A stretch of DNA of 63,332 bases, the filler included. It is 7 parts of 7 records of this genome, joined end to end, with 100 filler letters (N's around TTAATTAATTAA, not from the genome) between each part and the next. Parts side by side here need not be neighbours in the genome. Positions count along the whole stretch, not along the records: positions 57,499 to 63,332 come from SRR20825019_1093; 6 more parts are not named here. One strand, 5' to 3'. The first letter of the stretch is position 1. Every line of letters starts with the position of its first letter. Below are positions 9,726-63,332 of the stretch, piece after piece. The notes beneath the pieces were generated by a model. The model was not told the DNA's origin. It made no database searches and saw nothing but the letters and a program-made list of their open reading frames with translations. The translations under genes and the position numbers were made by a program.

Positions 9726-9775
9726 TATATATATATATATATATATTTGGTGGGGGGGGGGGGGGGGGGGGGGGG
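9726..9775. repeat. (TA)n microsatellite followed by poly-G at contig end
   Basis: Visible tatatata run then a G homopolymer immediately before the N spacer. Confidence 0.9.
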
Positions 9776-22046: not shown

Positions 22047-22146
22047 NNNNNNNNNNNNNNNNNNNNNNNNNNNNNNNNNNNNNNNNNNNNTTAATTAATT
22101 AANNNNNNNNNNNNNNNNNNNNNNNNNNNNNNNNNNNNNNNNNNNN
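22047..22146. other. Artificial contig-joining spacer
   Basis: N run with TTAATTAATTAA. Confidence 0.98.
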
Positions 22147-32372: not shown

Positions 32373-32472
32373 NNNNNNNNNNNNNNNNNNNNNNNNNNNN
32401 NNNNNNNNNNNNNNNNTTAATTAATTAANNNNNNNNNNNNNNNNNNNNNNNNNNNNNNNNNNNNNNNNNNNN
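32373..32472. other. Artificial contig-joining spacer
   Basis: N run with TTAATTAATTAA. Confidence 0.98.
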
Positions 32473-38400: not shown

Positions 38401-41400
38401 AACTCCGATGCAACTACTCAACATAAGCAGCTCGATAAGGTTAAGCGACATGCCTCTCGACGAAGGAAGCAGCGAGAAGCAAACAAGGCCCAAAGAAGAC
38501 GGAAGGCAACTGAGAGCTCGTCCAATCGCAGACGAGCCCACATTGGTGGTGAGACCTTCGCATCAAGTTCCAGCGAAAGTGAAGACGAGGGTGAAGCAGC
38601 CCGCTCCACCAATGACAACAAGCTTTCCGAGATGCACCTTCAGGCCTTGGCATTTGGATACGTCCCTGTCGGTGAAACCGAATTCGTAAACTTGGAGAAG
38701 GCTAAACGAGAAAATCACGAACTACTTTTGAAGGCGAGTGAAAAGAAATCTCGTCGTGATCGCAAGAAGGAACTCGAAGCGGTGCAAATTCGGGTTGAGA
38801 AGGAAGAGCTCACACGCGATCACGATCGCCATGTCGCTCGAACCAAGGACCTCCAACACGGCTTCGCCGTCACCAATCCTGTTCTCCTTACCAACTACGA
38901 TGCAGAAGATGGAAACGCCTCCACAGACAAGCAACATCGCCCCTCATCCAGTGATGATGGTGATGGTGAATTCTCAGAGCCAGGCATCATAATGCCATCC
39001 CCTCCTACCACAAGTTTCGCGCCAATGATGATGAACCATAATGATAACGACAACGATGATATCATTGGCAAAAATCAGAAGAAAATGAGGAAGAAGCGAG
39101 CTGTGACAATTGCGAATGAGGATGAGTCAAGCTCATCTTCCAGTCACTCTTCTGATTCCCTGACAGGCGAGTCAGACACCTTCAACCCTGACCAATACCT
39201 ACAACCATCAGCTTCCACCAAGCACATTGGAAAGACCTCCCGGAAACATCGTAAATTGCAACAAAAGCGAGATGATGACGATGTAGGTGCAGCATCCGCC
39301 TCCAGTCCTGCTTCTCCTGGTCAGACAAGAAAGCAACGAAAGGATCGTCGTGGAAATAAAAAATCTAACCGTCGCGTTGTGTTCGAGGACGATGATGAGA
39401 ACATCAACGCCAGCGACGATGATGACAACCAAGACGAAAACTTCGAATTGTTAGATGAAAGCCGCCTTCTCGCAAAGCAAGCCCGAAGCGAAATGAAGTT
39501 ACTTTCACAAGCTCTTGGGTTCCTCGATGGGGCTGTTGTGGATGGAATCGACTCGGATACTGACAGTAATATCATCGGTGTCAATCAGTATGATAAAACT
39601 CGCCAGGAGCTCCAACTCACGAAGCCAATGATGTTCCTCAACGAAGAGCGTACAAGGGCCGAGAACCGACAAGATCGTCGCGAGCATGAAGATCGCTTGA
39701 AAAATATCGTGTCAGCTGAAACGATCGCGATGGAGCAGCGAAGAAAAATTGACCGAGATGTACTTCAGTTAACGAAATTCCCTAGCTCGTCTGAACATGA
39801 TGAAGAGGAGGATGAATCACGTATCGGCTACTTCGACGACGCCGGCACCTTCCATCTTCACCCACACCTACATGGCCACGCAGCCGACATTGCTCCGAGC
39901 GACAACGATGACGACAACGGTGAGGATGATGTCTGGCCAAAGAGCGATGCAGCATCATGTGGCGAAAACGAATCTGGCGACTTTTCTTCACCATCAGCAA
40001 CGACTTTGAAGAATCGTAGAAAGTCAAGAGCAACTCTCAAGAGTGGCTCCGTTGTTTCAGAATCATCAGCACAACGTAAAAGTCGCGTACAAACTGAACC
40101 ACTACCATCCAAAAACTCTCGCTTTACACGTAGTAGGAAGAATCCCATTGTGAAATCCAGCAGTGCAAAACTTGCACACTCGGCCTCACAAAAGCAGCAG
40201 CAACAGCACTCTCAACGCCGATCCACTGGTGGTCGCCATGAGGGCGAAATGGCAGCCATAGAAGACTACTTTGCTTCTGAACTTGCAACTCGAAAGCGAA
40301 CCAACGCAAACCATCGACACAAGAACAATGGTATCAAGAACGGGCAACAGTACGACGATCTGGATGCGGTTCTTGATCGCTCGCAAATCATGGACACCCT
40401 TTCACGACTCCAACTTCCACAACAGGATGTCGCCGCCCTTGGTATGTTTGATGAACTCCAAGGGAAATCTATTTTCGAGGATGATGAAGATGGTAGCAGC
40501 GCCTCCCAAAGCGAGGGTGATAAGGATGAAAACAACGACGCTCCTACTTCTAAAAATTCTAGGCGATCTCCGAAGAAGAGTGGTGGCGGAAAGCCAATTG
40601 AAAATCGGATTGGCAACAAGCGCACAGCCCTCATTGGTGGCCTCAGGGCAGCGACTGGTGGCGGTGAAAGCGAATCTGAATCAGAAGAAGAGAATCGCGA
40701 TGAGACTTTGAATTTCCTTGACGCACACTCCAAGCGCCGCGCCACAATAAAGCCAGTAAACATGGTGAGGGATAAGACTGATGATGAAGATGATGAGTCG
40801 GAAACAAATGGCGGAGCTCCAACTCTGAAAAATGCCGATGGAACCAGTAAGGTCGACGATCACAACAATGCAGCTGATAACGAAGACGATGATCCATTTG
40901 TCAGGGTTCGACTTGCTGCTGAGCGAGAAATGCGAGGTGAAGTGCCTCTCACGTCAACTGAGCTGAAAGCGTCCGCAGACCAGACACTCACAACAACCTT
41001 CAGGAAGAAGGCTGTCCTTGCAGCTGTCGTTATCTTCTTGTTACTTTACCCAACAATTATCCAAAAGTGTTTGTTGATGGTGAAATGTGACGATTTGGAT
41101 TATGGTCCGCCTTCCACCGACTACCCTGAGGGTGGTAAGCATAGCCTTCTCTTCTCTGATCGATCGATTGATTGTAGCACACTCCTCCACGACAGGTACT
41201 CCGCTGCTGCATTAGTGATCGGATTTGCATATGGTGTTGGAGTACCCCTTTCTATCACCCTCTACATCTACATCCTGAAACGTCGCCGTGGTGTTGAGCA
41301 AGCCCTCACCACATTCGCCTACTATACTGCTGGTTATCGTGTTTCGATGTGGTGGTGGGAGGGGGTCATTTTAACTCGTAAATTGGCCTTGGTTGCGATT

Positions 41401-42975
41401 TCTGTCTTCATCACAGATGACAGTCTTCGGTTGTACATCGCCATGTGGTTCTTGTCACTTGCGCTCGTAAGTCACATCCAAGCCCATCCGTTCACCAACC
41501 AAACCCTTCACAACGTCGAAACCATTTCACTGTCTACAATCGTCATCACACTCAACATTGCACTCTTGTTTGAGTTCACAGAAACAGACTCCTTCTTGTA
41601 CAATACTCTTGCTATTGTTATCGTACTGCTGAACATTTTTGCACTTGCTTGCATCTTGTTCTTCATGGCCAGAGAGCTCAAATCAACCATCAAAACCTAC
41701 ATAGACGAGCATGGCCCAAGAGCTTGGAAAATTGTGACTGCGGTTGTCTCATTCATACCAGGTGTTGGTAATTGGATTGAGAAGCGTCGTCGAAGGAACC
41801 TTCTGATTGCCAGAGAGAAGGCGGAGGAAGAAGCACGAAAGCTTAATATGGAAGATGATGCTACCAGGATGGCAAGGCTCCGAGAGGAGTACCTGAAGGA
41901 AGCTCATCCCACCATGTTGCAACGAGTTGTCAACTACTGCAAGGAAGTGTGGGATGGCGATGCAGCAACTCAGGAACGACTTCAAATTGAGCGAGAAGAA
42001 AAGTCAGCTGAAGATCGACGAACAAAACAAGAAAATGACCCACTGCATGACGCGAAGGCGCTTGTGCGCGGTCGTGGTCAAACAGAAGGTACTGTCGCTG
42101 TTGAAGTTGGTGACACTCACAATGAAGATGATTTCTACTTTGAATTTGTGAGCGAGAGCGTCACCGAAAGTGACAACCCAGACGCAGGAGGAGGAAGTGA
42201 TGACAACAACAACCATAACAAGTACCCAGCAAATGCCGAGGGGCAACTTGTTGTGAGCAATCCACTTAACCGTCTTGACCGCAGTGCATGGGAGTACTCC
42301 TCTGATGAAGATCGTGAGAGGGAAGAGGAGTTGTTTGGACCCGCAACATCCGAGCGAACCAACTACTTTAGACATCACCGCCTGCCAAAGTCTGCAGCCG
42401 TTTCTGCCCCAGATGCACTCAACAATACATCAAAGGCAGAAAATACTCAACGACGCCGTCGAAAGGTCATTCAACGAAGGAGAAGGGCTCATGCATCGAC
42501 TATTGTTGAGGAAGACCCAACGTCCACTGAAGGTCCCTCTGCCACAGCACCTTCCTCCAGTCGAGTACGAAGCTTCTGGGACATCATTATTCGCACCATC
42601 AATGGAGATGTCCGTGATCTTTGGCAAGCCCCTGAAAACACTGACGAACAATGGAGGGATGTTGTTGATGGTGACATGCGGCTCTTCAGCTTGCTCGATG
42701 ATGACGTGCGCACGCTCTACGTAGCTAATCGCGCGGATATCGAAATTCTAAATGCAGTTATTGAAGAAAAGTCAAGGAGGATTTCATCCCTATCAAACGC
42801 ACTTTCGGAGCGGCAAGATCGCCACGAAAAGATGCTTGCTATGCGGGACGCCCTTCAAGGGAGCGGAACGGCAAGAGTTCTCAGCCAAGCTGTGGAGCAA
42901 TACCTTGAACAGACTGAAAAGGAGAAGTCGGGTGAATCAAAGCGTTTTGTTGAAACAGGCGCATTCTCCAATTAA
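32473..42975 (+). CDS. Giant (>3500 aa, 5'-truncated) laminin/EGF-like repeat + IPT/TIG + Cys-rich, multi-pass membrane protein
   Basis: The frame is open from the contig edge (32473). It has many CSGHGxC..C.C..GY.G..C repeats, IPT-like YPPIADSFGGTPITLTGEGF and GGTLISIGGFGF, a juxtamembrane Cys-rich region (GWWRSS..GYVGPRC..C), TM helices with KILLNHIQI and later LYP..C/WWWEGVILTRK motifs. No introns. Confidence 0.85.
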   Translation, partial: SFCELTCPGAPSSVCSGNGRCNDFGTCDCSIGFRGADCSTVCPGGVNNICSGHGTCLSSGVCTCTADLTSGYYGGLACDVCADQWFGLQCTQQCPFSNNTMCAGHGVCQNIEVVCKCDSSALNGYWEGAACDACQYGYFGDTCQRACPGSACVPCLNNGVCDMGRTASGLCTCVDNSTGHWSPPSCADCVTGYWGGQCINDCKFVGGLICAGHGECNGGIRGDGNCTCFSDAVNGWWMGELCQSCQPGYFGSACDRKCPGLAATGLVCSGRGTCADGLFGNGTCSCQTDYRGTSCTIPCPKNSTGFVCSDRGVCIQDTTATGVCICTAGNYSGTSCQECSDNYYGTSCTACDCGEHGVCNDGITADGTCFCAYGYAGVKCDKECDGGALSPCSGHGSCSISTGGCTCDNSTGLYTGGDCSQCAVGYESRECNVSCPVNPNTGDICSNMGSCFEGLCFCNTGSCDTSCNVTGVAACDAFLCPLGYWGPSCEHSCPGMPTSICSNAGSCIEGKFGIGTCVCQRGYSGTNCERSCPGLTSPCYYNGICNEVASTCTCFAGFAGKACDIVCPTSGGVRCGGHGSCNDTSIGDGKCICDLGWTSSTCTSICPGGLTTPCGFHGICTNNNTCICDGNFGGLACERCKQGFRGVSCDSLCVHGTTVGIDCVCDQYYSGINCNIPCPGMSVGNCTDLDCLDRGSSDCEGVCVWDSLQQACFGQVSCLRGMCSGRGLCQHGANESGVCACEADFYGAACTTYCTAQNCIQTLSVSNAQCNSLGSCGCQDDETAHFDNLLSGCTDCKATWFGPTCSFKCPCNDHGGCDQVTGTCECAGDFATGFWDGDSCDSCLDGYVGELCNRLNVEITRFDTTTAFQYPTGNYFQGFLIVDSIYNISYLGTTPFACIDNNKVANKTTSVGNFGQPMLAYESDSHVFVVFSHKDTVYANVDVYSIQRNDSTCSTMALQNSYRMAFATRAASSRRMLLAATGTPQEIITVITSTDAIGPVMLLASGDLASRTFESQIPVGYIDNDNATDVAYFSLLGTFVIVGAYNNSWAAITINTPANTNIIDLTKIVPVAFCLTSTTGCSSALKVFIVDEFCLIILRFDRGIGVVRFSLLNPSAGGVSEVLIVAADISTVTVIDVALDPTEGLAFAAVHINSDPTKIVKFYYRPVTGVVTVAPTVRGLTSMDTQGFDAEVATAMYTDLAKRSLWTLISTTGAASITELALFAVASIYPPIADSFGGTPITLTGEGFALSISRCTFGTTTVEAHVVDSRTLICNASAGGDEICEGNFIEASQLDRFTANGLRLRRSGTPVPTTAVNEYGDPHAWFEGGTLISIGGFGFAVSPAISCRITDDDGLDLIFDATFISTSSVSCVMPPSLAAGSSGPNSQISTSIDRFIWSKPVSFTVIGSAFGLHVTQPEQAHVYRSADIVELIDIRVDVVDDEKHQLLYYDGNAERLIRFSMTNFTDTRANVAVDPTSTLMLVITSNTTSRGFTYFKGTALRRPVVGEAFMELTHGTWTAPLTLLIAEGEPHHLSISKPPSTLIDNKIPKLEQQPTVVVVDISGNVIKNLLDKSLIVSTVVATYFEGTHDINATVVANVGGEFEFSDIAMRGYHGQTYRITFTAQGVDGVVSAELTVGPCATTEYGVAGALDCVTCPSSAHCNGSFTFDLDQGWWRSSPLSYNLYYCGKPYGNEPACEDGTCTSGYVGPRCTQCDSGFGLSGDTCAKCLDTTSNIFIVVVVLAVAIVVLSVVVYTALRSTKRSPLPVLIKILLNHIQISSQLGGIVGTLPGLVLSMVGWQQSVGSADPSALPAFDCLFAPSFYETFLFTASLPWIILLAAVVALRFLTKREIRLEIEDVEKQEDEKRQMGPFESLEDYNARRRELGLVDDEGALLSGNHPNNTVFARQGARSTAATMLNRRNRLRKVHVQLERLQRAAAVLSTLQLSQERSDAILWLRKMQHKLLQELGTLEETFGFNSDATTQHKQLDKVKRHASRRRKQREANKAQRRRKATESSSNRRRAHIGGETFASSSSESEDEGEAARSTNDNKLSEMHLQALAFGYVPVGETEFVNLEKAKRENHELLLKASEKKSRRDRKKELEAVQIRVEKEELTRDHDRHVARTKDLQHGFAVTNPVLLTNYDAEDGNASTDKQHRPSSSDDGDGEFSEPGIIMPSPPTTSFAPMMMNHNDNDNDDIIGKNQKKMRKKRAVTIANEDESSSSSSHSSDSLTGESDTFNPDQYLQPSASTKHIGKTSRKHRKLQQKRDDDDVGAASASSPASPGQTRKQRKDRRGNKKSNRRVVFEDDDENINASDDDDNQDENFELLDESRLLAKQARSEMKLLSQALGFLDGAVVDGIDSDTDSNIIGVNQYDKTRQELQLTKPMMFLNEERTRAENRQDRREHEDRLKNIVSAETIAMEQRRKIDRDVLQLTKFPSSSEHDEEEDESRIGYFDDAGTFHLHPHLHGHAADIAPSDNDDDNGEDDVWPKSDAASCGENESGDFSSPSATTLKNRRKSRATLKSGSVVSESSAQRKSRVQTEPLPSKNSRFTRSRKNPIVKSSSAKLAHSASQKQQQQHSQRRSTGGRHEGEMAAIEDYFASELATRKRTNANHRHKNNGIKNGQQYDDLDAVLDRSQIMDTLSRLQLPQQDVAALGMFDELQGKSIFEDDEDGSSASQSEGDKDENNDAPTSKNSRRSPKKSGGGKPIENRIGNKRTALIGGLRAATGGGESESESEEENRDETLNFLDAHSKRRATIKPVNMVRDKTDDEDDESETNGGAPTLKNADGTSKVDDHNNAADNEDDDPFVRVRLAAEREMRGEVPLTSTELKASADQTLTTTFRKKAVLAAVVIFLLLYPTIIQKCLLMVKCDDLDYGPPSTDYPEGGKHSLLFSDRSIDCSTLLHDRYSAAALVIGFAYGVGVPLSITLYIYILKRRRGVEQALTTFAYYTAGYRVSMWWWEGVILTRKLALVAISVFITDDSLRLYIAMWFLSLALVSHIQAHPFTNQTLHNVETISLSTIVITLNIALLFEFTETDSFLYNTLAIVIVLLNIFALACILFFMARELKSTIKTYIDEHGPRAWKIVTAVVSFIPGVGNWIEKRRRRNLLIAREKAEEEARKLNMEDDATRMARLREEYLKEAHPTMLQRVVNYCKEVWDGDAATQERLQIEREEKSAEDRRTKQENDPLHDAKALVRGRGQTEGTVAVEVGDTHNEDDFYFEFVSESVTESDNPDAGGGSDDNNNHNKYPANAEGQLVVSNPLNRLDRSAWEYSSDEDREREEELFGPATSERTNYFRHHRLPKSAAVSAPDALNNTSKAENTQRRRRKVIQRRRRAHASTIVEEDPTSTEGPSATAPSSSRVRSFWDIIIRTINGDVRDLWQAPENTDEQWRDVVDGDMRLFSLLDDDVRTLYVANRADIEILNAVIEEKSRRISSLSNALSERQDRHEKMLAMRDALQGSGTARVLSQAVEQYLEQTEKEKSGESKRFVETGAFSN

Positions 42976-43122: not shown

Positions 43123-43222
43123 NNNNNNNNNNNNNNNNNNNNNNNNNNNNNNNNNNNNNNNNNNNNTTAATTAATTAANNNNNNNNNNNNNNNNNNNNNN
43201 NNNNNNNNNNNNNNNNNNNNNN
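43123..43222. other. Artificial contig-joining spacer
   Basis: N run with TTAATTAATTAA. Confidence 0.98.
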
Positions 43223-43441: not shown

Positions 43442-44555
43442 ATAGAAAAAAATATAGAGAGAGTCGTACATCGAACACTATGGTTCTTTTTGATGCTCCT
43501 CTCATTTTTTTTTGGTTAAAAGTCTCCTTCTCGAATTCATTTATTCGTAACAAAAGCACTTTTAAAACACCATATCGCCCCAGGTACCCTACACGTACCA
43601 CCTCATCAGGCAACACACATACCACCACAAACACACACACACACACGCTCTCTACCATTATTTTTACTATTTTAGCACCCACGCACACACACACAAACAC
43701 ATTTTACAAACAAATATAATCATATCAAAAAGAGGTACGCAACAAGGAGAAAATAGGGGAAAATAGCGCACATCATGTCGACTAGTTTTTATTTTCATAT
43801 CACCGTTTTCATCATCACTCTGATGAGTGAGCGCATTAACACTGCGATGATGAAGAGAAAGAAGAAATAGAGAAAAATGTCCGAAAATGGATTGGCACGA
43901 AACCAATCTCCATATTGGACCAGCATTCAACATTCCCATTTATTTGTTGGGGTTGGTGGGCTAAAAGGAAAGTAGACCGTGATGGGGTATTGCCTCCCCC
44001 TCCTTAAAATGAAAGAGAGTAGGCCCCTGATAGCTGTATTTGAGGATATATATATACGATGTTGTTGTATGCATTATTTTTCATCCATCATTCTCACAAT
44101 TTATCACTTTCACTACAAACCTACAGCTCTCTAACAACTCTCTTCTTCCCTGCGAATCCGTGATAATATATATTTATTATATTCAAATAATAAATGATGT
44201 ATGGATAGTGACATGGACTTGCTTCGAAAGAACTAGTGTCTGTGTTGCGCATCGTTCCTATTGTGTTGCCACTTGTCCACTGTGCAAAATATATTTACAC
44301 GATTTTCTATCTTCTTTCTTCACACATTTTTCTTCGTTTCAAGTGTATAGGACTTCAAAGTAGTTTTAGATCTCACACAAAACACCGCACTCGCCATCAA
44401 GCACCCACACGACTTTAAAAGACAAGAAGAAGTATTTCGTAACACGTAAGAACGTCTTCACATCAACACTCACACGTTCGAAAACATACACCAGGCCCGT
44501 GCGTATTTCTTCTTCTACAATTATCGACTTCCATATCATATTCACACATACTACT

Positions 44556-47500
44556 ATGTCCTTCTCGTTCTCTCAGTCGAACACGAGTGATATCGTCAGG
44601 AGGGATACGAACATCAATCACGGCACCGATCGGGGGCTAGATGCCCGGGCTGCTACTACTACTGCTTATCCCTCCACCACTATCAACCATAGTAGTGGTT
44701 GTAAAGGGGGGGCGTCGAGCGATCGTGTTACCGTCCGTATCGCCGTATTGTTCGCAATCGGCTGTATCGTCATCATCGGAGCTTTTACTGCCGTCACTGC
44801 CTACTCCGCCTTCACCTTCTCATCCACGATTACCAAGGGGGTCAAAGACAATTTAGAGCTGTCTCTACGTGCCGCAATGCAGCTGGTTACGACCCCGATT
44901 GACGCGTCGAATGCCTATATAGACGCCCTCCGAGACAAAATCGAGACCAATCCCGATATGTATGCCCTGGACGATGCTAATCCAACCTCTCTCGTCAATA
45001 CACCCTCCATACACACCTTCTTTATCGATGCCATGTTGACGGCGCTACACAGGAAGGAGATGGCATACATATTCCAAGTACGGAAATCTTCCAGATATAC
45101 TAGGAGCCCATCGGGTGCTCCCATCGACATGGTAGCAGTGGCATCTCGTTACACAAACCAGATTCTCTTTTTGGCGAATGATAGCTTCACAACGGTGGAG
45201 GTTCCCGACAACAGTGTTCTCTCTAACATCACTGGACAGCCCGAATCAAGTTTTTCCTACGACACCTCTGGCGATCCGTATGTCACTGCAACATTCGCAA
45301 CAGCCGGGAAACAATGGGTCACATCCGCATTCGTGAACCCAGATCCCACCGTCCCAGTCTCGGTCCTCATGACAATTTATGCCGAGATTCGTGGATTTTC
45401 AGGCGGAGGGTTCGGGATTGGAATCGATCACAACATGATAGCATTCCAAGAATTTATGCTTCAGGCAACTGTGCCATTTTCCATTGGTAGGCCCGATCCT
45501 CAGAAAGTAGTCTCACTAGGCGCCCATACCACCCTCTACGACCTCTCAGCAAACGTACTCATAACGTCCAGCATGACGACTGTAAAACTGTTCAGCGATA
45601 CGAATGAATTATGGCCGGCAGGTAATAGTCCCAATGCCGACCTCAATGCAGCCTACGCGGAGGCTATTGCTGTTTGTGGTGGAATTGATAATACGTTTTG
45701 TCAAAACGATCCCAGCATTCGATCATCGGGGGAACTACTCATCAGCGCACTTCGTAATCGTGACCTCACCACTAAGCTCGACCACCTACTCGTCTCCGTC
45801 GTCCCCCGAAGCTACTTCTTTGCCACCACAGATACAACCTTAGGGGTATCGATTGGCATTGGGGTGTTCTGTTGTGTGTTGATTGTTGCAGGGTGCATTC
45901 TATTGTTACGATCCATCACCCCCGCCCTGCACGCCCTCCAGGAGAACATGCTACTGGCCTCTGAGCTACAAAACCACCGTGTTGTCCACAGAGAGTCACG
46001 CCTGACGGATATCGCGAATCTGAGTGCTGTATTCGATCAAATGAATCAGCGGCTCCTATCATTTGTGCCAGAGGCTGTGCTTCTTGGACATGGTTCCACG
46101 AGTGAGGGGGGAGTAGGGGGCGGTGAGGATGATGAGAGCGAGGGTGGGGATGATGGGATGGTTTATGATGGTAATACTAAGTCTACCCGTCGTACCACAA
46201 ACAGCTCCACACTTATGTCCTCCATTCACGACGCCCATACTGAACTTACCGATGCAAGTGGGGCATCGACGGAAAAGATTGTAAAGCTGTTTACGATGAA
46301 TGAGAAACGTATTTCAGTTCTTTCCGTCAATTTGGTAGGATTCCATGCTCTCGTGTCATCATCAAACGGCCAAAATAACTCATCAAATCCCCGAAAAATC
46401 CATGACATTTCCACCAAGTTATTGTCTATTGTTGTAGGTGCAGCTCATCTTGATCGTGGTGTTTTAGATAGCTTCCACGGGGACCATTTCATGCTCACCT
46501 TCAATGCCTCCCGTGCTGTTGCAGGCGCCCTCGCAGCAGCTGTCCGAGCTGCTAACCTCATTGTCGATGAAGTGAGGGCGGATGCCCGCTTCAGGGGTTG
46601 TCTTGGTATTGCCTGTGGTGCTGCTGTGGGGAGGGCCCGCATAGGTACCCTGGGAATCGAGGGTCATCGCCGTCTCAGTGTGGTGGGGGGCGTCTACAGC
46701 TCGGCTATACGGATGCAGCATGTTAGTGGACAGTTCATCCAACGGGTCTCCAACATGACTAATACTACCCGACGAGGAGGGGTGGTTGGTGACCAACCAG
46801 TAGCTAGCGGATGTGCGATTGAAGAATCCGCTCTCAAGGACGTTGGGAACTGTGGAATGTACATGCAACTCATTGGTCGTGGTGCATTCCCCAACGACCA
46901 CCACCACTACTACAACTGCACAAAGACCTACACTGCCGCGCAACAACCCCAACAACCCCAACAACCTCATCATCAGCAGCAGCATTCGGGTGTTGGAAAG
47001 TATGTCTACCTAGCCCATTACAACCCCCGGGATGACCGGATTGGGAATACCCAAGCAGCAGGGGATGCTGAGTGGTTGTACGAGCTGAATGCCATAGAGG
47101 CGGGAGACCCCTATCGTGCTCCGAATGAAGCCCTCATGGCGTTAATGAATGGAGATCGGGATCAATGCGGCCGGTTGATACCGATACGAAGTCCTCCACA
47201 ATTACTGAACGGATCTGTCACCGAAAACACCAACCACAACATCAACATCACTAATACCGGTAATCATCATGTCCTCAGGAGGACCCCACGGGCGCACTCT
47301 CGGGGAGGGGGGGTCGTTGAAGCCGTAATGCCCTTCAGTCGCTCCACCTCTACTAGCACTATCGACGATGCAATCAACTCAAGTACATCTGGTGGTGGAG
47401 GTGGTGATACTTATCGCCGCCAAAGTGGCATGGGTAGCAATACCTGTGGTGGTGCTGTGGAGGGTGATGCTACTAGCTTCACACTAATTCCCACCATGAT

Positions 47501-47663
47501 GCCCGTTCAGAACCGTACCACATCATGTTGGCACATGGTGGAGAATATATACGAGGCGAATGGGCGGTTGGTTGAGAACAATGGGGTTGTTGGTGATGGT
47601 GGGGAAAATGCTACATACAACAACACAGCTTCTGGATGTGAACTGTGGACGTTTGCTGTCTAG
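44556..47663 (+). CDS. Receptor-type class III nucleotide cyclase-like protein (2 TM, extracellular sensor, HAMP-like linker, degenerate cyclase domain)
   Basis: Two TM helices flank an extracellular region, followed by SRLTDIANLSAVFDQM..LLSFVP and cyclase-like RISVLSVNLVGFH, GVLDSFHGDHFMLTFN and GTLG..VVGGVYSSAIRMQ. Intronless. Confidence 0.75.
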   Translation: MSFSFSQSNTSDIVRRDTNINHGTDRGLDARAATTTAYPSTTINHSSGCKGGASSDRVTVRIAVLFAIGCIVIIGAFTAVTAYSAFTFSSTITKGVKDNLELSLRAAMQLVTTPIDASNAYIDALRDKIETNPDMYALDDANPTSLVNTPSIHTFFIDAMLTALHRKEMAYIFQVRKSSRYTRSPSGAPIDMVAVASRYTNQILFLANDSFTTVEVPDNSVLSNITGQPESSFSYDTSGDPYVTATFATAGKQWVTSAFVNPDPTVPVSVLMTIYAEIRGFSGGGFGIGIDHNMIAFQEFMLQATVPFSIGRPDPQKVVSLGAHTTLYDLSANVLITSSMTTVKLFSDTNELWPAGNSPNADLNAAYAEAIAVCGGIDNTFCQNDPSIRSSGELLISALRNRDLTTKLDHLLVSVVPRSYFFATTDTTLGVSIGIGVFCCVLIVAGCILLLRSITPALHALQENMLLASELQNHRVVHRESRLTDIANLSAVFDQMNQRLLSFVPEAVLLGHGSTSEGGVGGGEDDESEGGDDGMVYDGNTKSTRRTTNSSTLMSSIHDAHTELTDASGASTEKIVKLFTMNEKRISVLSVNLVGFHALVSSSNGQNNSSNPRKIHDISTKLLSIVVGAAHLDRGVLDSFHGDHFMLTFNASRAVAGALAAAVRAANLIVDEVRADARFRGCLGIACGAAVGRARIGTLGIEGHRRLSVVGGVYSSAIRMQHVSGQFIQRVSNMTNTTRRGGVVGDQPVASGCAIEESALKDVGNCGMYMQLIGRGAFPNDHHHYYNCTKTYTAAQQPQQPQQPHHQQQHSGVGKYVYLAHYNPRDDRIGNTQAAGDAEWLYELNAIEAGDPYRAPNEALMALMNGDRDQCGRLIPIRSPPQLLNGSVTENTNHNINITNTGNHHVLRRTPRAHSRGGGVVEAVMPFSRSTSTSTIDDAINSSTSGGGGGDTYRRQSGMGSNTCGGAVEGDATSFTLIPTMMPVQNRTTSCWHMVENIYEANGRLVENNGVVGDGGENATYNNTASGCELWTFAV

Positions 47664-49543: not shown

Positions 49544-49804
49544 AGTATGTAAAGTACCACAACTGTCATCTCCTCCTTATTGACGTGTTAGTGTTGATTG
49601 GATTGTAAACTCTTTGTACTATCGATTATCTATACAATAATGGCATTGTGACACACAGTACTTTCAGACTTTTACGACATTGAATTTATCATTTATCCCC
49701 TTCTCGATTTAAAATATTCCCCCAGAATAAGTGGTAGTAACAATTACCTCCGTAAACAGGCTATACTCGCATCTAACCGCCACTCACTTCCCCAAACCCC
49801 TCAC

Positions 49805-51033
49805 ATGTCGCTACGAAGAGTTCATATCCTACGTACCGGTGGTGGTGGGCTACTACTACTCCCTCCTGTACATGACCTGCATCATACACTGGGGCATCAC
49901 CAGGTCAGGACTATTTCATCAACTTCATCGTCTCCAAAAACCAAACCTAGACATCAACAAACTGTTGCTCCCTCAACATCGTCATCGTCGTCTGCGTGTC
50001 CACTATCTCGTCGAGAGGCACCACTACCCCGTCAACGCCGCAATGGCGGACCCCTACCCAAAACACCACCAACACCACCATCCTCATCTCCAAAACACTC
50101 ATCGTCACCAGTACCAATACCATCAGCTTCTACAGGGCCTACTACCACGACACCATCATCATCAGAAACAGAAGTAGCATTGATGCCGCATACCAAGGAG
50201 GATGTGTTAGAGCTCACCGACAGGCACAATAAGCGTACATCTACCCTAGTGGCAACTATGAGGCTTGGGGATACTAAACTGCGAACACGGGCCTCCACAC
50301 TACTACTCAAATCGACTGATGAGCTGTGTGAAATGATGGACGCACTGTGTGGTGGAGCAAACACTAGTAGTAATAATAGTACTACCACTACTACTTCTTC
50401 CTTTGTGAAGCTCGAAGAGCTGTCTACACCGCTAAGTGAAGCCCAAGCCCGCCTGCAGGCAATCCTACACCTCGCTGTGGTCCGACACCCCCTGCCATCC
50501 CCAGTAGATGCCGCTCATGAGGGCAATGCCCTGTTCCTCCGAATTGGATCACTGTCTCGTATCCAACGCCAATACATATCTGGTGGTGGTAATACTGGAA
50601 ACGTTGGGGGTGAGTCTTGGGAGCGTGGTCTTGGATATTTGTCCTTACTTGCCCAGCACCGACCCACAACACTATCCACCGCACCTGATGCCGTCGTCGT
50701 GGAGCTGATAGCTGCACTGGAGGCCCGCCACAAACAACAACAAGCATCATCTCCTCCAGCAACGGACCCCCAGGATGAGTCAGCCAATGGTGTTAGTAGC
50801 AGTTGTGGTAATGGTGTTGGCGAGGCTGCGGTGTGGATGAGAGCGCTCTCTCTTGTCCATCATCTGGGTCGTGTTGGTGCCGAGCCCCCAGCCGCAGTCG
50901 CACAATGGGTGTATACCGTCGCAGGGAAGACGTCAGGCCAAGTTGGGTGTGCGGTACGACAGATTAATAACATACCCGTACGACCATCATCACCATCATC
51001 CTCTCCACATCCGCCTCCCCCTTCTTACCCTGT
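49805..51033 (+). CDS. Hypothetical protein, possibly mitochondrial (3'-truncated)
   Basis: Open to the contig end. N-terminus MSLRRVHILR resembles a short mitochondrial presequence; S/P/T-rich then helical region. Confidence 0.55.
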
Positions 51034-51133
51034 NNNNNNNNNNNNNNNNNNNNNNNNNNNNNNNNNNNNNNNNNNNNTTAATTAATTAANNNNNNNNNNN
51101 NNNNNNNNNNNNNNNNNNNNNNNNNNNNNNNNN
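51034..51133. other. Artificial contig-joining spacer
   Basis: N run with TTAATTAATTAA. Confidence 0.98.
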
Positions 51134-57398: not shown

Positions 57399-57498
57399 NN
57401 NNNNNNNNNNNNNNNNNNNNNNNNNNNNNNNNNNNNNNNNNNTTAATTAATTAANNNNNNNNNNNNNNNNNNNNNNNNNNNNNNNNNNNNNNNNNNNN
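57399..57498. other. Artificial contig-joining spacer
   Basis: N run with TTAATTAATTAA. Confidence 0.98.
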
Positions 57499-58146
57499 GC
57501 AGGCACGGCGGATGAGATTCCCAGCAGAGTGTTGCTGAGGGAAGCAGTGTGGTCACCGCATGCCGGACGCGGCGAGGCGATGACAAAAAAAAAAGAGAGC
57601 ACTTGCTCTTCAATAGTCAGTACCGGTCATAGTGCCTCACTGACCCACCGTGACTGAGTAAACCAACACCCGCCCATTGGCAATGCCAGCCGGCGGGTGC
57701 CCGACTACAGGGCCGGCCGGCAAGCGCGGCACTGGGCGAGATTCGGACGAATTTCGATCACGAGTGGGCTACGGATTCGATGGGCTGTCGGGCGGTGCCG
57801 GCCGGTGGGTGGGACGGTGTGGGGCAATCCGAGAATGATCCGTGCCGTGGGCGCGACGACGTTCTTGTCCAGGCAATCCTGATTGCCGTTCGGCGAGGGC
57901 CCGGGGCGTGCAAGGTCGGCCTGATCCGTTCACGAAGGTCAACAGTGGCTTCTGTTCACGGCGTGGTCACATTTTCTTGTGCAAAATCACGAAGTCTCAA
58001 CGAGACGGGCATATATACCCGACGAGCACGGATTGTCACGGATTAAGACTGTTAGTGCGATGCTGATACTCACGATACTCATACTCGGCAGCACCGGGCA
58101 GCAAGGCTGGCCCACGACCAGCCGCCCCCCCAGGCCCCCCGGCGCC

Positions 58147-61100
58147 ATGGCTGCCTACCGGACCGGCCCACCTGTGGCTGCCTCATCGCCGCTGCGGAGG
58201 CCAGCGGCGGCAGCGACGATACAGCCTGGCTTGGCCGACGTGTGGCTCAACTCTGTCGTGATGGGCTGGCCTTGTTGGCAGCGGTTCTGGCCCAGCGGAC
58301 TTTGCCCTGCGCCATACGCGACCAACTGTGCGCACCGAGGCCATGACCAAGATCCCCCCAACCTTTGTGAGCATTTCAATTTCTTGTTCGAATGTTGACT
58401 GATCCACTGTGGATATAGATGAAGGCACCGTCGATAAGCATTGCAGCTTGATTGTAGCCTCTCGCACCGGGTTCATTGGCTCTGCGCACCGAGTCCATGA
58501 CCAAGATCTCCCCAATTCAGGTAATATTTTCATTTTCTTGTCAGAGTGTTTTCACTGAAACTGCCATAGCGGGTGGAACGGTGTTGCTGCTAGATTGCGG
58601 ATCAGGTCCTAATGGAAGTGATTGTCAATTCATTGCACTGGCTGCTTCACTTGCATGAAGACTACGCCAAGATTTCAATCACTTGCAACTGCGTGCGATT
58701 GCGGCCTCATATTTGGAAGACACCAGGCACTGCAGTAGCAGTCTCCTCGATCTCGACGCACGATCATTTCAGGTTGATGGGGACCGACGGCTTCATGAGA
58801 TCAAGGCGGGCCAAGGGATGGGCTCATATGGGACCCTTCTTGCACTATCGAATGCTCTTCACGTGAACATAGCTGTCCTCACCATAGGGTGCCATGGCCC
58901 TTGCGGCATCACGTGGGTCGGTGATGATCACAGAAACGGCTTACACACTGTGATTCTTGCACTTCATCAATCACACTACTATGAGATCATCAATCCTCAT
59001 ATTCTTCCCCGTGAGCTATTCCGTTCTCCATCGCAGTTTAGATCTGAGGAGGATCTGTACTCTGCATTCCACGGAGGTGGGAGTGGTGGACCAACGAAGG
59101 TGACCTTGGAAGATCTTGGGGACAACCCTGTCTCTAGCGACGACGAGGACGTCGAAGACGATGGAGAACAAGGTTACAATGTTGTCGAAGATGATGATCG
59201 GGATGGCGATGATGACCATGAGAAGGTCGATGGGCAGCAGGATACCATAGAAGAAGAGGATGTGGCACAGGATCTTCCGGGAAACAAGATTGACGCTGAG
59301 GTGGACGAAGCTTTGGAACAGTTGCAAGATACCTTGCAGGAGTGGAATGATGGACAAGTGGAGTTTGCACGCCAGTACCGAAAGGGTCAATATGGATCTC
59401 ACGAGCCAAGGAAAGTTGACCCCACTCGTTTCCCTGGAAAAGTGAAGATCGCCATTGATACCTCGGGGAGATTTGCAAAGAAGGCAATGGCAGCGATAAC
59501 CATTGACGTCCCTATCACCCGCAGTGATGCAGATCCTAATAAGAGTACGACGGAGACGATGGTATCCTTGGATTCAATTTTTGGTAACAGCAGGAGTTGC
59601 CCCATGGAAAGAGACTTATTGAACAAGGGAGGTGCTGTGGGCCCGTGGAACTCAGTGTTCGCCAGTATCCATGGTAAAAGCATTCTAATGACCCCGCAAC
59701 AACGCGCTGAAGCCTTGATTGCGGGCTTGGACATCCGCCGTGATGAGCTCCTATCATTTGGGCCTAAAGACCCTGTCGATCGGCGTTTCGGCATATATAC
59801 TGTGCCAGATAACCCACCAGGTGGCGGGGTGTCGGCTGTTCCCTCAGTCGATGCGAAAGGAGCAGATGGCACTGAGATGACTGGTTTGGCAACGCATGTG
59901 AAAGGAGCGATTCAAAAGGTTGCAAGTGCAAGGGCTCAAGCCAAGAAATCACATGAGGAGCATAAGAACAAGTGGGGACTGACGGGAAAGGTCGCCAACG
60001 GCAGCATTGCTGGGGTATTCTGTTCTGCATCATTCATTCCGTTGCCTATGGCGATTCTCTTTTTGACGAAGATGAGCTCACTAGGATCCAAGAAAGATAA
60101 CGTTTCCTATTTATCGTCAACAGTGACACAGGAGCAGAGGAACTTTGCAAAGGGCATGATTAGTCTTCTCACTGTGCACGAGGATATCACAGAGATTGTA
60201 CAACGGGGGGGCCACATGGGTTTTGTCTCGGACTCAGACTTGGACAAGAGGACCATCACTAATCTAAAGGCTATGATCACGAGGCTTAAGAACCTGAAGA
60301 GCGAGCACTTCGACAAGATTACTGCGGGAGAGAAGGCCTTTCAAGTTGCTAGGTCTATCCAGGGCATGAGCCAGGCAATGCTGAATGATTTTGTATCGAA
60401 GGCACCCGACCGAATTCGGGCCAAAGACCGGCTCTATGACTCGTCAACGAGCACCGGTTTAGTGCGTCTCAGCAAGGACGCTGAGGAATTTGTTGGCATG
60501 AGAGCCACGGATCCAGGAGGTACCGTCGTTGTATGCGACCGGAACAAGTTGCTGTATTTGATGATCATTCGGCATATTCTTGAGGGCGGGGCCACCTTTG
60601 ATGAGTGGATGAAGGAACCCTACATTGAGGTGCTGCTATCGATTGATGGAAAATACCTACAGAATGGGTATCATTATACCACCGGGACAGTAACGATGAC
60701 AAGAGGTCCCAGTGTGAACGCCTACTCTGTAAAACACAACGTTCCAGTCGCCATAGCTGCCGACGAAGACAGCAAGTACACGATTCAGCGCATTGTGAAT
60801 GACCTGAAGCTGGATGACCATGATGTGTGTGGATTGGAAGCAGATGGCAATCAGGTGCCTTTACCGGACAACGCTGGCGACATGACGGTTCCTGATCGTG
60901 AGGTGTTCGGTGCGTGCAACAAGAAGCGTTCAATAGTGGGCATCCGGGCCTCCAGGACACGCTCCCACATTGACTTTGGAAGTGGTTTGACGAAGTTTGT
61001 GCACGAAATTATCGTTCTCGACCTGAAGGCAAGATGGGGAGCAGGACAGGGAGACTCTACCACATGTTTCTGCTGCGGAGATACTCAGGATGAGTGGGCC

Positions 61101-63332
61101 GAGCCCAACCCTACGCCAATGCCGTTTCGGATACTTGGACGACGTTTCAACAAATTCAATCCACCGCATTCCGCGGGAACAGACGAATGTCGACTCTGCC
61201 GAAAGCGCCTAATTCAAGATGCTGAACAAGTCGCTCTTTTGCACAATCTTTTGATTGAGACGGATGATGTCTCCGATGAACAGCTTAAGAAGGCATTTGC
61301 GGATGTAGAGGAAGCTTGTGCCAAGGCCCAGGCGCCCATTGTATGCACCTGCTGTGTAGATGATACACATGACAACTCTGGCGTGCCCCTTGAACTCTCC
61401 GTAGATGGAGTTGCTGTTTGTTGCAATGTCGACTGCGCCCGCCATAATATGAAGAATAATTTGGAGAACTCGATTGTGTTGCTTTGCCAGAATGGGAAGC
61501 GAATTCAGGAACTTTGTTCTAGCTTGCCCGAATTCGCGGGCTTCCTTGGTGAAATTAAGAAGCACATCAAGGAAATACCTGGATTGGAAAGCGTTGTTTT
61601 TGGCGAATCTAAAATGGATGCCAAGCGAATTAATGGCCATGTAGTATCCAGCGAGGAATGTAAGGAGTTCATTCAAACTATCAGTTCCCTTCATGGAGAC
61701 CGCGCAAGGGAATTCTTTGCTCGGAACAAGGCCATTGTTGTTGTTGATGACCGGACTGGAAACATTCTTCCTGAGATCACAACGCTGGCACAGAAGACGG
61801 CAAAAGAGAGACAGATAACGAAGGCACTCTACCCCAATGGCGTCCCGCGACTTTGGCTTCCGAGAGAGCTTGACATGATAGCTGCCTATGATGAAAAAAC
61901 GAAGAAGGAGTGGGGCTCCAAGCCCCATGGAGAAGAATACGGAAACGGCGTCGAAGATGAGTATGTGCCTCCAGATGATGGTAGTGAGGAACTGGAAATG
62001 TATGGCGGTGTCGAATTTTCCAAGGGGTACAAGCCAACTGCGAAGCCAACTGCGACGACCGGCCGCGATACTGCTCCGGCTATGGGCCCTCGGATGACCA
62101 CTTTTCTTCGGAGGAGAGGCTGCACCAAGCGAAGCGAGTACTACACCACAAAGAACAAGCACGTGTTGGGAAGGCATCCTCTGCGGACAGTTAGATGGAA
62201 AGCGGCGTTTGAGCCTCTTCTCGAGATGTTGGAAGAAAAGCGGCAGCACATGATTACGTATATTGAGAACTCAAAGGAGAAGGTGGATCTGGGACACCGT
62301 CTTGAGAACGCTCGTCAGAAGAAGAAAGGCCACGGTAGTATCAAGGTCTTGCCCAACGATATTCCAGAGAAGTTGGAGAGTTTGATCAAGCACTTTAGGG
62401 CGCTCGATTATATTTTCAACGCAATGCTTGGAGTTGAGGACAGTCTTGTTGCGGACGAATATCGGGCCCGCTGGTTCCCCAAGAGCCTACCAGATTCGCC
62501 GTTGGCGGACCAAATGACCATCGATATTCTATCCCTTGACAGGGAGCCAATCACTACTCGCATTTTGACTGAAGAGGAAGACATTCTTCTCCGCAAAGCC
62601 CTTCCTCGTCATTATGAGGTTCTACCTCGGAATTCGGACGGTCGTGTTGTCGTTCCATGGTATTACACAGTGCCTGAACCTACCGGGAAGGACACTATAG
62701 AGAAACGGAAGGCCCAGAGACTTCAAAGGAGATTAGATCGCAAACTCTTGTCGCCGGAGCGGAAACGAGAGCTCATCGGGGTCATGCGAATTGTGTGTAA
62801 GGCTAACCGCCTCGACCAGAAGGTAGACGAATACATTGCCACCAAGGTTGACATTCTGGGCTTAAACTATTCAGAGCAAACCCGGGGCATGTACTTTAAG
62901 TCGTTTATCAAGAGCTACTTGCACCAGTTGAGGCATTCTTGGGAGCGTTTAGTATTACACGGTAGTCAGAAACGATATACCGCTGATGTTGAGGAATCGA
63001 GTCATAAGCGGCTAGCGCAAATGCATCGAGGGGTTTGCAGTGCTCACACTGCTCGCTACGATGCCCATGAGCGGTACAAAGGTGGAAATGCTTGGCAGAT
63101 GCTGAGTAGGGCCGTCACTCGGGAGTATTCAGAGGTTTTATTTTTGATGCATAAGCACGGGTTCCTCGGAGATACACTGGAAGAGTTCATGAACTCTAAC
63201 TCTGGAACGATTGGTACCGCTCCATTACCGGTTGTCCCTTCCACACTGGACGGAGTATTTTTCAACATGACCACATCAGACGCCGCGGTAAGCGATCAGC
63301 CCGATGAGACTGCGCCTGCAACTCCCGTTTCC
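58147..63332 (+). mobile_element. OTU-domain-fused RAG1/Transib/Chapaev-like DDE transposase gene (exons ~58147-58366, 58419-58520, 58570->63332; in-frame TGA at 58656; 3'-truncated)
   Basis: Manual translation: 1558 stop-free codons from 58659 to the window end. Motifs: LLSIDGK (D at 60645), PVAIAADEDS, IIVLDLKARW...CFCC (D at 61020), VDCARH (61431-61445), SYLHQLRH (62913-62936) and DVEESSHK (E at 62994). The upstream part of the same frame gives GSDCQFIALA...HLQLRAIAASYL...GSYGTLLALSNALHVNIAV...ILALHQSHYY (OTU-like). Two GT-AG introns keep the frame. Confidence 0.72.
58330..58558 (+). repeat. Imperfect ~73-75-nt direct repeat spanning an exon end plus intron (copies 58330-58402 and 58484-58558)
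   Basis: gcgcaccgag(g/t)ccatgaccaagatc..cccaa...gt(g/a)a...ttttc..tttcttgt...actga occurs twice. Confidence 0.85.

What the first reader, a model, noticed from the sequence alone, without database searches (positions are those of the whole stretch)
58570..58995. OTU deubiquitinase-like domain fused N-terminally to the RAG1-like transposase
Seen: in the transposase frame, DCGSGPNGSDCQFIALAASL, HLQLRAIAASYL, MGSYGTLLALSNALHVNIAVL and VILALHQSHYY. Established: OTU proteases show DGNCxFRAL (catalytic Cys), LR..a..yl, WG...L.ALS....V.I.V and a terminal L....HY (catalytic His). Both Cys (58623) and His are present here. RAG1 carries an N-terminal RING E3 ubiquitin ligase, and OTU domains are known from other mobile elements such as some Helitrons. 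Inference: this relative carries the opposite, ubiquitin-removing activity, or a self-processing protease, possibly to avoid degradation or alter chromatin at targets. I do not recall this fusion being described.
Basis: partly seen in the sequence, partly recalled or inferred. Interest (0 to 1): 0.85.

Follow-up and report, generated by a model that had tools for sequence, protein, structure and literature searches.

The report
OTU protease domain on transposase-like gene
A long mobile-element-like gene begins with an OTU-type (ubiquitin-removing) protease domain that is broken by one stop codon; this pairing is known in other transposons but was not found in print for relatives of the antibody-gene recombinase RAG1.

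Summary
That frame is open from 58458 to the window end, apart from one TGA at 58656-58658. The OTU likeness is real but weak. Pfam OTU scores 13.5 bits, E 0.1, below its cut-off of 23.3, which is noise level on its own. A profile of 18 viral OTU domains that I fetched matches at hhalign P 2.2e-5, score 34.4. None of 200 shuffles or 103 natural decoys reached that score. Cys 58623 and His 58974 fall on the invariant Cys and His columns. Language-model features of the part after the stop also point to OTU. The TGA lies between the Cys helix and the rest of the domain, so this copy cannot make an intact domain without read-through. The "RAG1-like" label rests on language-model features and motif spacing. 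Pfam, PDB sequence searches and both AlphaFold models gave nothing. No relatives were found, so the fusion is seen in one truncated copy. OTU fused to a DDE transposase is in print for Ginger1, and OTU occurs in Helitrons. I rate this a new variant of a known kind.

The parts
58326..58396 (+). Upstream, decayed copy (unit A) of the 71-nt direct repeat. It holds an ATG and about 8 similar codons that run into a stop.
   Evidence: the repeat finder D1: 77% identity, 154-nt spacing; alignment A1.
58480..58550 (+). Downstream copy (unit B) of the 71-nt direct repeat. It holds the likely start codon of the long frame.
58497..58499 (+). First ATG of the frame, which opens at 58458 after TAG 58455-58457. 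Likely start codon.
   Evidence: Read. Inference; no transcript data.
58578..59000 (+). OTU-like papain-type cysteine protease domain, interrupted by the TGA.
   Evidence: Pfam OTU E 0.1. hhalign against 18 viral OTUs P 2.2e-5, with controls 0 of 200 and 0 of 103. hmmsearch alignment from Cys to His. Atlas: 24 of 30 hits in the OTU set at 0.91 for the post-stop part.
58623..58625 (+). Candidate catalytic Cys (TGT), in the context D-C-Q-F-I-A.
   Evidence: Aligned to the invariant Cys column of A2.
58656..58658 (+). In-frame TGA between the Cys helix and the rest of the OTU domain.
   Evidence: Both sides score against the OTU profile separately: 14.4 and 25.2.
58974..58976 (+). Candidate catalytic His (CAC), in the context S-H-Y-Y.
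   Evidence: Falls on the invariant His column in the global hhalign and the hmmsearch alignment. The columns are of low confidence.
58659..63332 (+). Open frame of 1558 codons, cut off by the end of the window and contig.
59131..59275 (+). Asp/Glu-rich low-complexity linker after the OTU domain (approximate limits).
   Evidence: Read from the translation.
60645..61076 (+). Candidate RNase H-like catalytic region. It holds D663 (60645-60647) and D788 (61020-61022), each after a hydrophobic run, and C803-x2-C806 (61065-61076).
   Evidence: Positions. Spacing compared with published RAG1 numbering. Atlas RAG1 clusters at 0.95 for residues 560-1060. This is inference, not a demonstrated fold.
61185..61454 (+). 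Further Cys clusters (ECRLC, CTCC, CCNVDC..H), possibly an extra zinc module inside the large insertion.
   Evidence: No family match.
62922..62996 (+). H1422-x3-H1426 followed 17-20 residues later by D1443, E1445 and E1446. Candidate second zinc-site half plus the third catalytic carboxylate.
   Evidence: this pattern occurs in 25 of 20000 shuffles, and together with the D-x-K..CxxC pattern in order in 0 of 20000. The patterns were chosen after looking. RAG1 spacing.
61410..61812 (+). Stretch also present, with no differences, as one 434-nt contig in public run X1.

Best explanation
The last 5.8-kb piece of the window carries the 5' 4.8 kb of one very long gene. It runs from ATG 58497 for more than 1612 codons and is cut by the contig end. 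It looks like the transposase gene of a DNA transposon.

From N- to C-terminus the product has:
- an OTU-family-like papain-fold cysteine protease domain, with Cys at 58623 and His at 58974;
- an acidic linker;
- a large Cys/His-rich region that most likely holds a RAG1/Transib-type RNase H-like DDE/DDD core, with an unusually long insertion between the CxxC and HxxxH zinc-site halves.

By analogy with the OTU and Ulp1 domains of Ginger1, Helitron and Mutator elements, the OTU module would travel in cis with the transposase. It would remove ubiquitin or a ubiquitin-like modifier from the transposase itself, from chromatin or from repair factors at the transposition site.

In this copy a TGA at 58656-58658 separates the catalytic Cys from the rest of the domain. 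As sequenced, this copy cannot make an intact OTU-transposase protein. It is most simply a young copy with one nonsense change.

Shown: the motifs, the single frame, the stop, and the above-chance OTU likeness. Inferred: the RAG1/Transib identity, mobility, and any enzymatic activity.
For: - Frame and stop.
- OTU, Pfam: OTU is the only family reported at E<=10 for the 155-aa piece.
- OTU, Atlas: features of the post-stop part alone place 24 of 30 hits in the OTU set at 0.91, with 174-184 shared features.
- OTU, hhalign: P 2.2e-5 and score 34.4 against 18 viral OTUs. 0 of 200 shuffles and 0 of 103 natural tiles reached it.
- OTU, both sides of the TGA contribute: 14.4 and 25.2.
- OTU, HMM alignment: Cys to His in one stretch, E 2.4e-6.
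- OTU, pairwise: phmmer E<0.01 to 5 of the 18 viral domains (17 returned a score).
- Transposase, Atlas: residues 560-1060 give RAG1 pre-RNase H / RNase H / ZnC2 / ZnH2 clusters at 0.95, and 6 of the ten best hits with a family agree.
- Transposase, spacing: D663-D788 is 125 residues against 108 in RAG1. D788 to C803 is 15 against 19. HxxxH to the carboxylates is 17-20 against 20.
- Mobile or foreign DNA: GC falls from 64-77% upstream to about 50% at roughly 58350-58400.
- Precedent: Ginger1 and Helitron OTU domains.
- Young copy: one stop in 1612 codons.
Against: - Pfam OTU is below its cut-off (13.5 against 23.3 bits). That E-value is common noise in tiles of this ORF.
- No OTU hit appears in the three tiles that cover only the post-stop part of the domain.
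- The D-G-N of the Cys loop is absent, and the residue two after the His is Tyr.
- No RAG1 or Transib hit in Pfam, in PDB phmmer, or in phmmer against 1.84 billion representatives, which gave 1 weak 133-aa hit.
- Both AlphaFold models have pLDDT 33-34, so no fold was compared.
- The CxxC region also resembles a BIR zinc site at noise level. It could therefore be a local zinc knuckle and not half of a RAG1-type site.
- The motif patterns were chosen after looking.
- There are no terminal repeats, no target duplication, no second copy and no 3' end. A CACTGTG at 58405 is at chance frequency.
Confidence: 0.6

Rival explanations
1. The OTU-like domain is real, but the long ORF is not a RAG1/Transib-type transposase. 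It belongs to another or unknown DDE superfamily, or is a host or giant-virus gene with zinc-binding modules.
For: - No RAG1 family hit in Pfam on 79 tiles, and none in PDB sequence searches.
- The best Atlas hit is an unnamed cluster, and only 6 of the ten best hits with a family agree.
- A BIR-like local match lies at the CxxC.
- No transposon ends were seen.
Against: - Several separate RAG1 clusters score 0.95 with 170-175 shared features.
- The order and spacing of the D, D, CxxC, HxxxH and carboxylate motifs agree with published RAG1 numbering.
- No other transposase family in Pfam matched either.
Confidence: 0.28
2. The OTU likeness is a chance or decayed resemblance with no protease fold or activity.
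For: - Pfam is below its cut-off and at noise level.
- The Cys loop lacks D-G-N.
- hhalign probability is only 76%.
- The global alignment around the His has low column confidence.
- The AlphaFold model is unusable.
Against: - Three methods name the same family out of thousands: Pfam's only hit, the Atlas search on a partly different stretch, and my own viral profile.
- 0 of 303 controls reached the score.
- Cys and His fall on the invariant columns.
Confidence: 0.1
3. The domain is an OTU-type protease that works mainly as a self-processing protease. It would cut itself or the acidic linker away from the transposase, as some RNA-virus OTU-like proteases process polyproteins, and would not act as a deubiquitinase.
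For: The domain sits at the extreme N-terminus and is followed by a long acidic linker. The Cys loop is atypical. That some viral OTU-like proteases have a dual role is recalled knowledge and was not checked here.
Against: No cleavage-site motif was identified. The published reading of OTU and Ulp1 domains in transposons is ubiquitin or SUMO hydrolysis, although neither has been assayed.
Confidence: 0.12
4. The TGA is not a real defect. It is a sequencing or assembly error, a polymorphism, or is read through, so the organism does make the intact fusion protein from this locus.
For: There is only one stop in 1612 codons, and only one assembly is available. The one other run that holds any of the gene does not cover the site.
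Against: The frame holds no other TGA in the 1558 codons that follow. This argues against TGA being a sense codon here. No read data cover the site.
Confidence: 0.15

Closest known systems
Ginger1 DNA transposons (Bao, Kapitonov & Jurka 2010, PMC2836005; abstract and passages read)
   Same: A cut-and-paste DDE transposase is fused in one protein to an OTU (Pfam PF02338) cysteine protease domain. The authors propose a role for the ubiquitin pathway in transposition.
   Different: In Ginger1 the OTU is C-terminal and the catalytic core is a Gypsy-integrase type. Here the OTU is at the extreme N-terminus, and no integrase (rve) or other Pfam transposase family matches.
Helitron/Helentron OTU and VTD deubiquitinase domains (Erven et al. 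2022, PMC9741609; abstract and passages read)
   Same: Papain-fold deubiquitinase-type domains lie inside the main ORF of a eukaryotic DNA transposon. The paper states that transposon OTU domains have not been assayed.
   Different: Those are rolling-circle elements with a RepHel protein, not a DDE enzyme.
Transib transposases, RAG1-like (RAGL) transposases and RAG1 (PMC1131882, passage read; PMC9435367, first part of the text read; PMC4914335, passages read)
   Same: Language-model features of ORF residues 560-1060 resemble them. The order and approximate spacing of two Asp, a CxxC, an HxnH and a third carboxylate agree. RAG1-like and Transib elements are reported from unicellular eukaryotes.
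   Different: No HMM or pairwise sequence match. The insertion between the two zinc-site halves is about 616 residues against about 207. The N-terminus carries an OTU-like domain, not RAG1's RING and zinc-finger region. No RAG2-like gene and no terminal repeats were seen in the 1 kb upstream.
Small OTU-domain proteins on giant-virus and other viral contigs (loci L001-L033)
   Same: These are the best sequence relatives I could obtain. Pairwise phmmer gives E 1.9e-5 to 1.6e-3 for 5 of the 18 (17 returned a score), and the profile match has P 2.2e-5.
   Different: Those carry the canonical D-G-N-C-[LF]-F loop, because they were selected by it. They are not fused to a transposase-like ORF in the stretches fetched.

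Membership tests
OTU cysteine proteases (Pfam PF02338, MEROPS C85-like) | Match to the family HMM at its curated cut-off | tested here: not met
   13.5 bits against a cut-off of 23.3, E 0.1. Tiles that lack the pre-stop part give no OTU hit.
OTU cysteine proteases (Pfam PF02338, MEROPS C85-like) | Above-chance profile similarity to bona fide OTU domains | tested here: met
   hhalign P 2.2e-5, score 34.4. 0 of 200 shuffles and 0 of 103 natural tiles reached it. hmmsearch E 2.4e-6. 16 of the 18 reference domains hit Pfam OTU.
OTU cysteine proteases (Pfam PF02338, MEROPS C85-like) | Catalytic Cys at the start of the first helix (C-x-F-x-A context) | tested here: met
   C at 58623-58625 aligns with the invariant Cys. 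F and A are kept.
OTU cysteine proteases (Pfam PF02338, MEROPS C85-like) | D-G-N Cys loop before the Cys | tested here: not met
   The window has N-G-S-D before the Cys. D, G and N are invariant in A2, although A2 was selected by that motif.
OTU cysteine proteases (Pfam PF02338, MEROPS C85-like) | Catalytic His in an H-[YF] strand near the C-terminal end of the domain | tested here: met
   H at 58974-58976 falls on the invariant His column in the global hhalign and in the hmmsearch alignment. Column confidence is low.
OTU cysteine proteases (Pfam PF02338, MEROPS C85-like) | Papain-like OTU fold | tested here: inconclusive
   The single-sequence AlphaFold model has pLDDT 32.8, so no fold search was run.
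OTU cysteine proteases (Pfam PF02338, MEROPS C85-like) | Isopeptidase activity on ubiquitin or ubiquitin-like modifiers | not testable with these tools
   Needs an enzyme assay.
Transib / RAG1-like transposases | Match to RAG1 or Transib family HMMs, or to solved RAG1/Transib sequences | tested here: not met
   No RAG1 family in the whole ORF, three pieces or 79 tiles. No PDB phmmer hit.
Transib / RAG1-like transposases | DDE triad on an RNase H fold, with a zinc site split into CxxC and HxnH halves flanking a large insertion | tested here: inconclusive
   Candidate residues D663, D788, C803/C806, H1422/H1426 and D1443/E1445/E1446 have RAG1-like order and spacing. The patterns were chosen after looking. 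The insertion is three times longer. The model was unusable.
Transib / RAG1-like transposases | Similarity seen by a protein language model | tested here: met
   RAG1 pre-RNase H / RNase H / ZnC2 / ZnH2 clusters score 0.92-0.95. The tool itself rates this as a lead only.
Transib / RAG1-like transposases | Terminal inverted repeats that start with a CAC heptamer like the recombination signal, and 5-bp target duplications | not testable with these tools
   The 3' end lies beyond the window and no second copy exists. CACTGTG at 58405 is at chance frequency: 41 matches in the window against 35 expected.
Ginger1 transposases | Gypsy-integrase-type core (zinc finger, DDE, GPY/F) with a C-terminal OTU or Ulp1 | tested here: not met
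   No integrase family hit. The OTU-like domain is N-terminal.

The most novel reading that the evidence does not exclude
This is one copy of a protist family of RAG1/Transib-type transposons whose intact members make a transposase with a working N-terminal OTU deubiquitinase. If so, enzymes of the RAG1 lineage recruited ubiquitin-system modules at their N-terminus more than once: a RING ligase in RAG1 and a ubiquitin-removing OTU here. That would point to ubiquitin control of the cleavage complex as an old feature of this transposase superfamily.
Probability: 0.3. Interest if true: 0.7.

Novelty: new variant of a known kind. Interest (0 to 1): 0.45.

Why it matters
Protease domains of the ubiquitin and SUMO systems turn up repeatedly in DNA transposons: OTU or Ulp1 in Ginger1, OTU and VTD in Helitrons, Ulp1 in Mutator elements. 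The paper read states that transposon OTU domains have never been assayed.

If the long ORF is truly RAG1/Transib-like, this would add that superfamily to the list. It would also place a ubiquitin-removing module where vertebrate RAG1 carries a RING finger. That offers a natural comparison for asking why enzymes that make double-strand breaks carry ubiquitin-system modules.

As it stands, the case rests on one truncated, stop-interrupted copy from an unidentified eukaryote.

Tried and rejected
Searches and models that gave nothing:
- Whole genome: none is held for this window.
- Relatives: the search for homologous proteins found none on ORF residues 500-1100 at E<=1e-3, on the core piece at E<=10 or on the OTU piece at E<=10.
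- phmmer of 1200 residues against 1.84 billion representatives gave 1 hit, P0002 (133 aa, E 3.6e-4). It is 32% identical over 111 residues and lies outside both domains of interest.
- The search for related loci found none in metagenome, viral or prokaryote genome contigs.
- A degenerate DNA pattern for the peptide around the third carboxylate gave 0 matches in metagenome contigs.
- tblastn of the protein against the rest of the window found no other copy.
- Structure: both AlphaFold jobs ran on single sequences and gave pLDDT 32.8 and 34.2. No fold search was made, because such models give meaningless matches.
- PDB phmmer gave only noise on five queries.
- NCBIfam gave nothing, and PHROGs gave only noise-level hits to families of unknown function (E 0.05-0.3).

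Sequencing runs: no RNA holder is listed. The single run laid (X1) covers only 61410-61812 and says nothing about the TGA or the OTU part.

Ideas considered and dropped:
- An intron that removes the TGA. There is no GT between the Cys codon and the TGA (read).
- Splicing of the intron-like 49-nt stretch 58521-58569. This would shift the frame into an early stop, while the unspliced frame is open (read).
- TGA as a sense codon. The frame holds no other TGA in the 1558 codons after this one.
- CACTGTG at 58405 as the transposon end. It occurs at chance frequency.
- KDZ, MULE, hAT, piggyBac and other transposase families. No Pfam match.

Supplementary files of the papers could not be opened. Those of PMC9435367 (lists and alignments of RAG1-like and Transib homologues) might show relatives with extra N-terminal domains.
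Full report
**Setting.** The window is not one stretch of genome. It is seven contigs joined by linkers made of 44 N, TTAATTAATTAA and 44 N. The finding lies in the last piece, 57499-63332 (5834 bases). No whole genome is held for the window. The other pieces carry long uninterrupted eukaryote-type genes, so the source is a eukaryote, probably a protist. I did not try to name it.

**The observation.**
- The frame opens at 58458 after a TAG and has its first ATG at 58497.
- It holds a TGA at 58656-58658 and then runs for 1558 codons to the window end without another stop.
- The candidate catalytic Cys codon is 58623-58625, before the TGA. The candidate His codon is 58974-58976, after it.

The OTU-like domain is therefore at the very N-terminus of a predicted protein of more than 1612 residues, and the stop cuts through the domain.

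**Is the OTU likeness more than chance?** Pfam alone does not settle it. OTU (PF02338) is the only family reported for the 155-residue piece, but at E 0.1 and 13.5 bits against a cut-off of 23.3. When I tiled the rest of the ORF into 79 pieces, about 35 unrelated families appeared at similar E-values. The tiles that lack the pre-stop part gave no OTU hit.

Three further lines agree on OTU.
- First, the ESM Atlas feature search on the post-stop part alone (ORF residues 1-125) put 24 of 30 hits in the OTU set at 0.91, with 174-184 shared features.
- Second, I fetched 33 viral-contig loci by the canonical Cys-loop motif and kept 18 non-redundant domains, dropping 15 that were duplicates, short frames or a long-insert subgroup. 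I aligned them as A2; 16 of the 18 hit Pfam OTU.
- hhalign of A2 against the window piece gives score 34.4, P 2.2e-5, probability 76% and 84 columns, starting at the Cys.
- Controls: 200 residue shuffles had mean 11.4, maximum 22.2 and none at 34.3 or above. 103 natural 155-residue tiles from this window had mean 11.6, maximum 24.4 and none at or above it.
- Third, an HMM built from A2, run with filters off, aligns the piece in one stretch from the Cys to the H-Y, at 14.2 bits and E 2.4e-6 for one comparison. Pairwise phmmer gives E below 0.01 for 5 of the 18 viral domains; 17 of the 18 returned a score.

Both sides of the TGA score on their own, 14.4 for the 30 residues before it and 25.2 for the 124 after it. 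The stop therefore interrupts one domain and does not separate two genes.

Departures from the family are these. The D-G-N before the Cys is N-G-S-D here. The residue two after the His is Tyr. The fold could not be checked, because the single-sequence AlphaFold model had pLDDT 32.8.

**Is the long ORF RAG1-like?** This part of the title is much less secure.

Positive evidence:
- The Atlas feature search on ORF residues 560-1060 returned an unnamed cnidarian cluster at 0.96. Several separate RAG1 clusters (pre-RNase H, RNase H, ZnC2, ZnH2) followed at 0.92-0.95 with 160-175 shared features. 6 of the ten best hits with a family agreed.
- A published description gives mouse RAG1 as D600, D708 and E962, with a large insertion that holds C727/C730 and H937/H942 forming one zinc site (PMC4914335, passage read).
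- The ORF has, in the same order, D663 and D788, each after a hydrophobic run; C803-x2-C806 fifteen residues after D788; and H1422-x3-H1426 followed 17-20 residues later by D1443, E1445 and E1446.
- In 20000 shuffles of the ORF the first pattern occurred 440 times, the second 25 times, and both in order never. I chose these patterns after looking and partly from recalled RAG1 motifs, so the count is only a rough guide.

Negative evidence:
- No RAG1 family appeared in Pfam for the whole ORF, three large pieces or 79 tiles.
- There was no RAG1 or Transib chain in five PDB sequence searches.
- NCBIfam gave nothing, and PHROGs gave only noise-level hits to families of unknown function.
- The AlphaFold model of 60099-61388 had pLDDT 34.2.

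Further cautions. The stretch between the two zinc-site halves would be about 616 residues against about 207 in RAG1, and it holds further Cys clusters. The CxxC region also gives a noise-level BIR-like match, so its role is open. I put the RAG1/Transib reading at about 0.7.

**Is it mobile, and is the fusion general?** I could not test either.
- phmmer of 1200 residues against 1.84 billion representatives found one 133-residue fragment (E 3.6e-4; 32% identity over 111 residues), outside both domains.
- Three word-index searches found nothing.
- Scans of metagenome, viral and prokaryote contigs found nothing.
- The rest of the window holds no other copy.
- GC falls from 64-77% upstream to about 50% near 58350-58400. 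This fits foreign or mobile DNA. The only heptamer-like candidate end, CACTGTG at 58405, is at chance frequency, and the 3' end lies beyond the window.
- A 71-nt direct repeat at 154-nt spacing duplicates the start-codon region upstream. Its meaning is unknown.

**The stop codon.** No GT lies between the Cys codon and the TGA, so an intron cannot remove it. The frame has no other TGA in the 1558 codons after it, which argues against TGA being a sense codon. The simplest reading is a young copy with one nonsense change. A sequencing error or a polymorphism cannot be excluded, because the one other public run that holds any of this gene covers only 61410-61812.

**Comparison with what is known.**
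- OTU fused to a DDE transposase is in print. Ginger1 transposases carry a C-terminal OTU or Ulp1 domain, and the authors proposed that the ubiquitin pathway takes part in transposition (PMC2836005, abstract and passages read).
- Helitrons carry OTU and VTD deubiquitinase domains. The paper says transposon OTU domains have not been assayed (PMC9741609, abstract and passages read).
- RAG1-like and Transib elements are reported from unicellular eukaryotes and bacteria (PMC9435367, first part of the text read).
- Earlier notes of this scan describe RAG1-like ORFs in an amoeba.
- The full-text search for OTU + transposase + Transib gave 3 papers, and none of the two OTU passages I read, nor the third paper's title and abstract, describes the fusion.
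- In the search for Transib with deubiquitinase terms, none of the 15 listed papers held the word Transib.
- The search for Transib + Ulp1 gave 5 papers, judged from the listing only.
- Supplements were closed.

The specific pairing is therefore unreported as far as I could search, but the kind of fusion is known.

**Verdict.** It is best filed as a new variant of a known kind, a transposon-borne OTU domain, here N-terminal on a probable RAG1/Transib-like enzyme. It has been seen in one truncated, stop-interrupted copy. Interest 0.45.

Noticed in passing
window 9776-9875, 22047-22146, 32373-32472, 43123-43222, 51034-51133, 57399-57498: The window is seven separate contigs joined by linkers of 44 N, TTAATTAATTAA and 44 N. 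GC ranges from about 45% to 77% between pieces, so neighbouring pieces need not be neighbours in a genome, or even come from one organism.
   Followed up: partly
window 58326-58396 and 58480-58550: A 71-nt direct repeat (77% identity, 154-nt spacing) duplicates the region of the likely start codon. Each copy has an ATG, about 8 similar codons and an intron-like GT..AG stretch. The upstream copy runs into a stop.
   Followed up: partly
window 61410-61812: Public run X1 holds a 434-nt contig identical to this stretch. It is flanked at both ends by 15-16 nt that are reverse complements of each other. From recall these look like a cDNA-amplification primer. The run's kind is not on record.
   Followed up: no
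window 61044-61120: The stretch around C-F-C-C-G gives weak BIR (IAP zinc-site) matches: Pfam E 0.03-0.07 and PDB E 0.5-1.4. An H-x6-C follows 30 residues later. This is at noise level but is a possible alternative reading of this zinc motif.
   Followed up: partly
window 32425-42975 (+): A single open frame of 3516 codons has teneurin-type EGF repeats and IPT/TIG domains. It fills almost the whole contig.
   Followed up: no
window 44370-47663 (+) and 49652-51085 (+): Two long open frames (1097 and 477 codons) have no Pfam family at E<=0.01.
   Followed up: no
window 25861-27972 (-), 14700-16790 (-), 11041-13439 (+): These are ordinary eukaryote-type genes without introns over long stretches: a DEAD-box helicase, a DnaJ-thioredoxin protein, and ankyrin-repeat frames with a faint polycystin-channel hit.
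   Followed up: no
window 1-9775: This contig has 65-77% GC and long overlapping open frames on both strands. That is expected from the high GC and is not evidence of genes.
   Followed up: no
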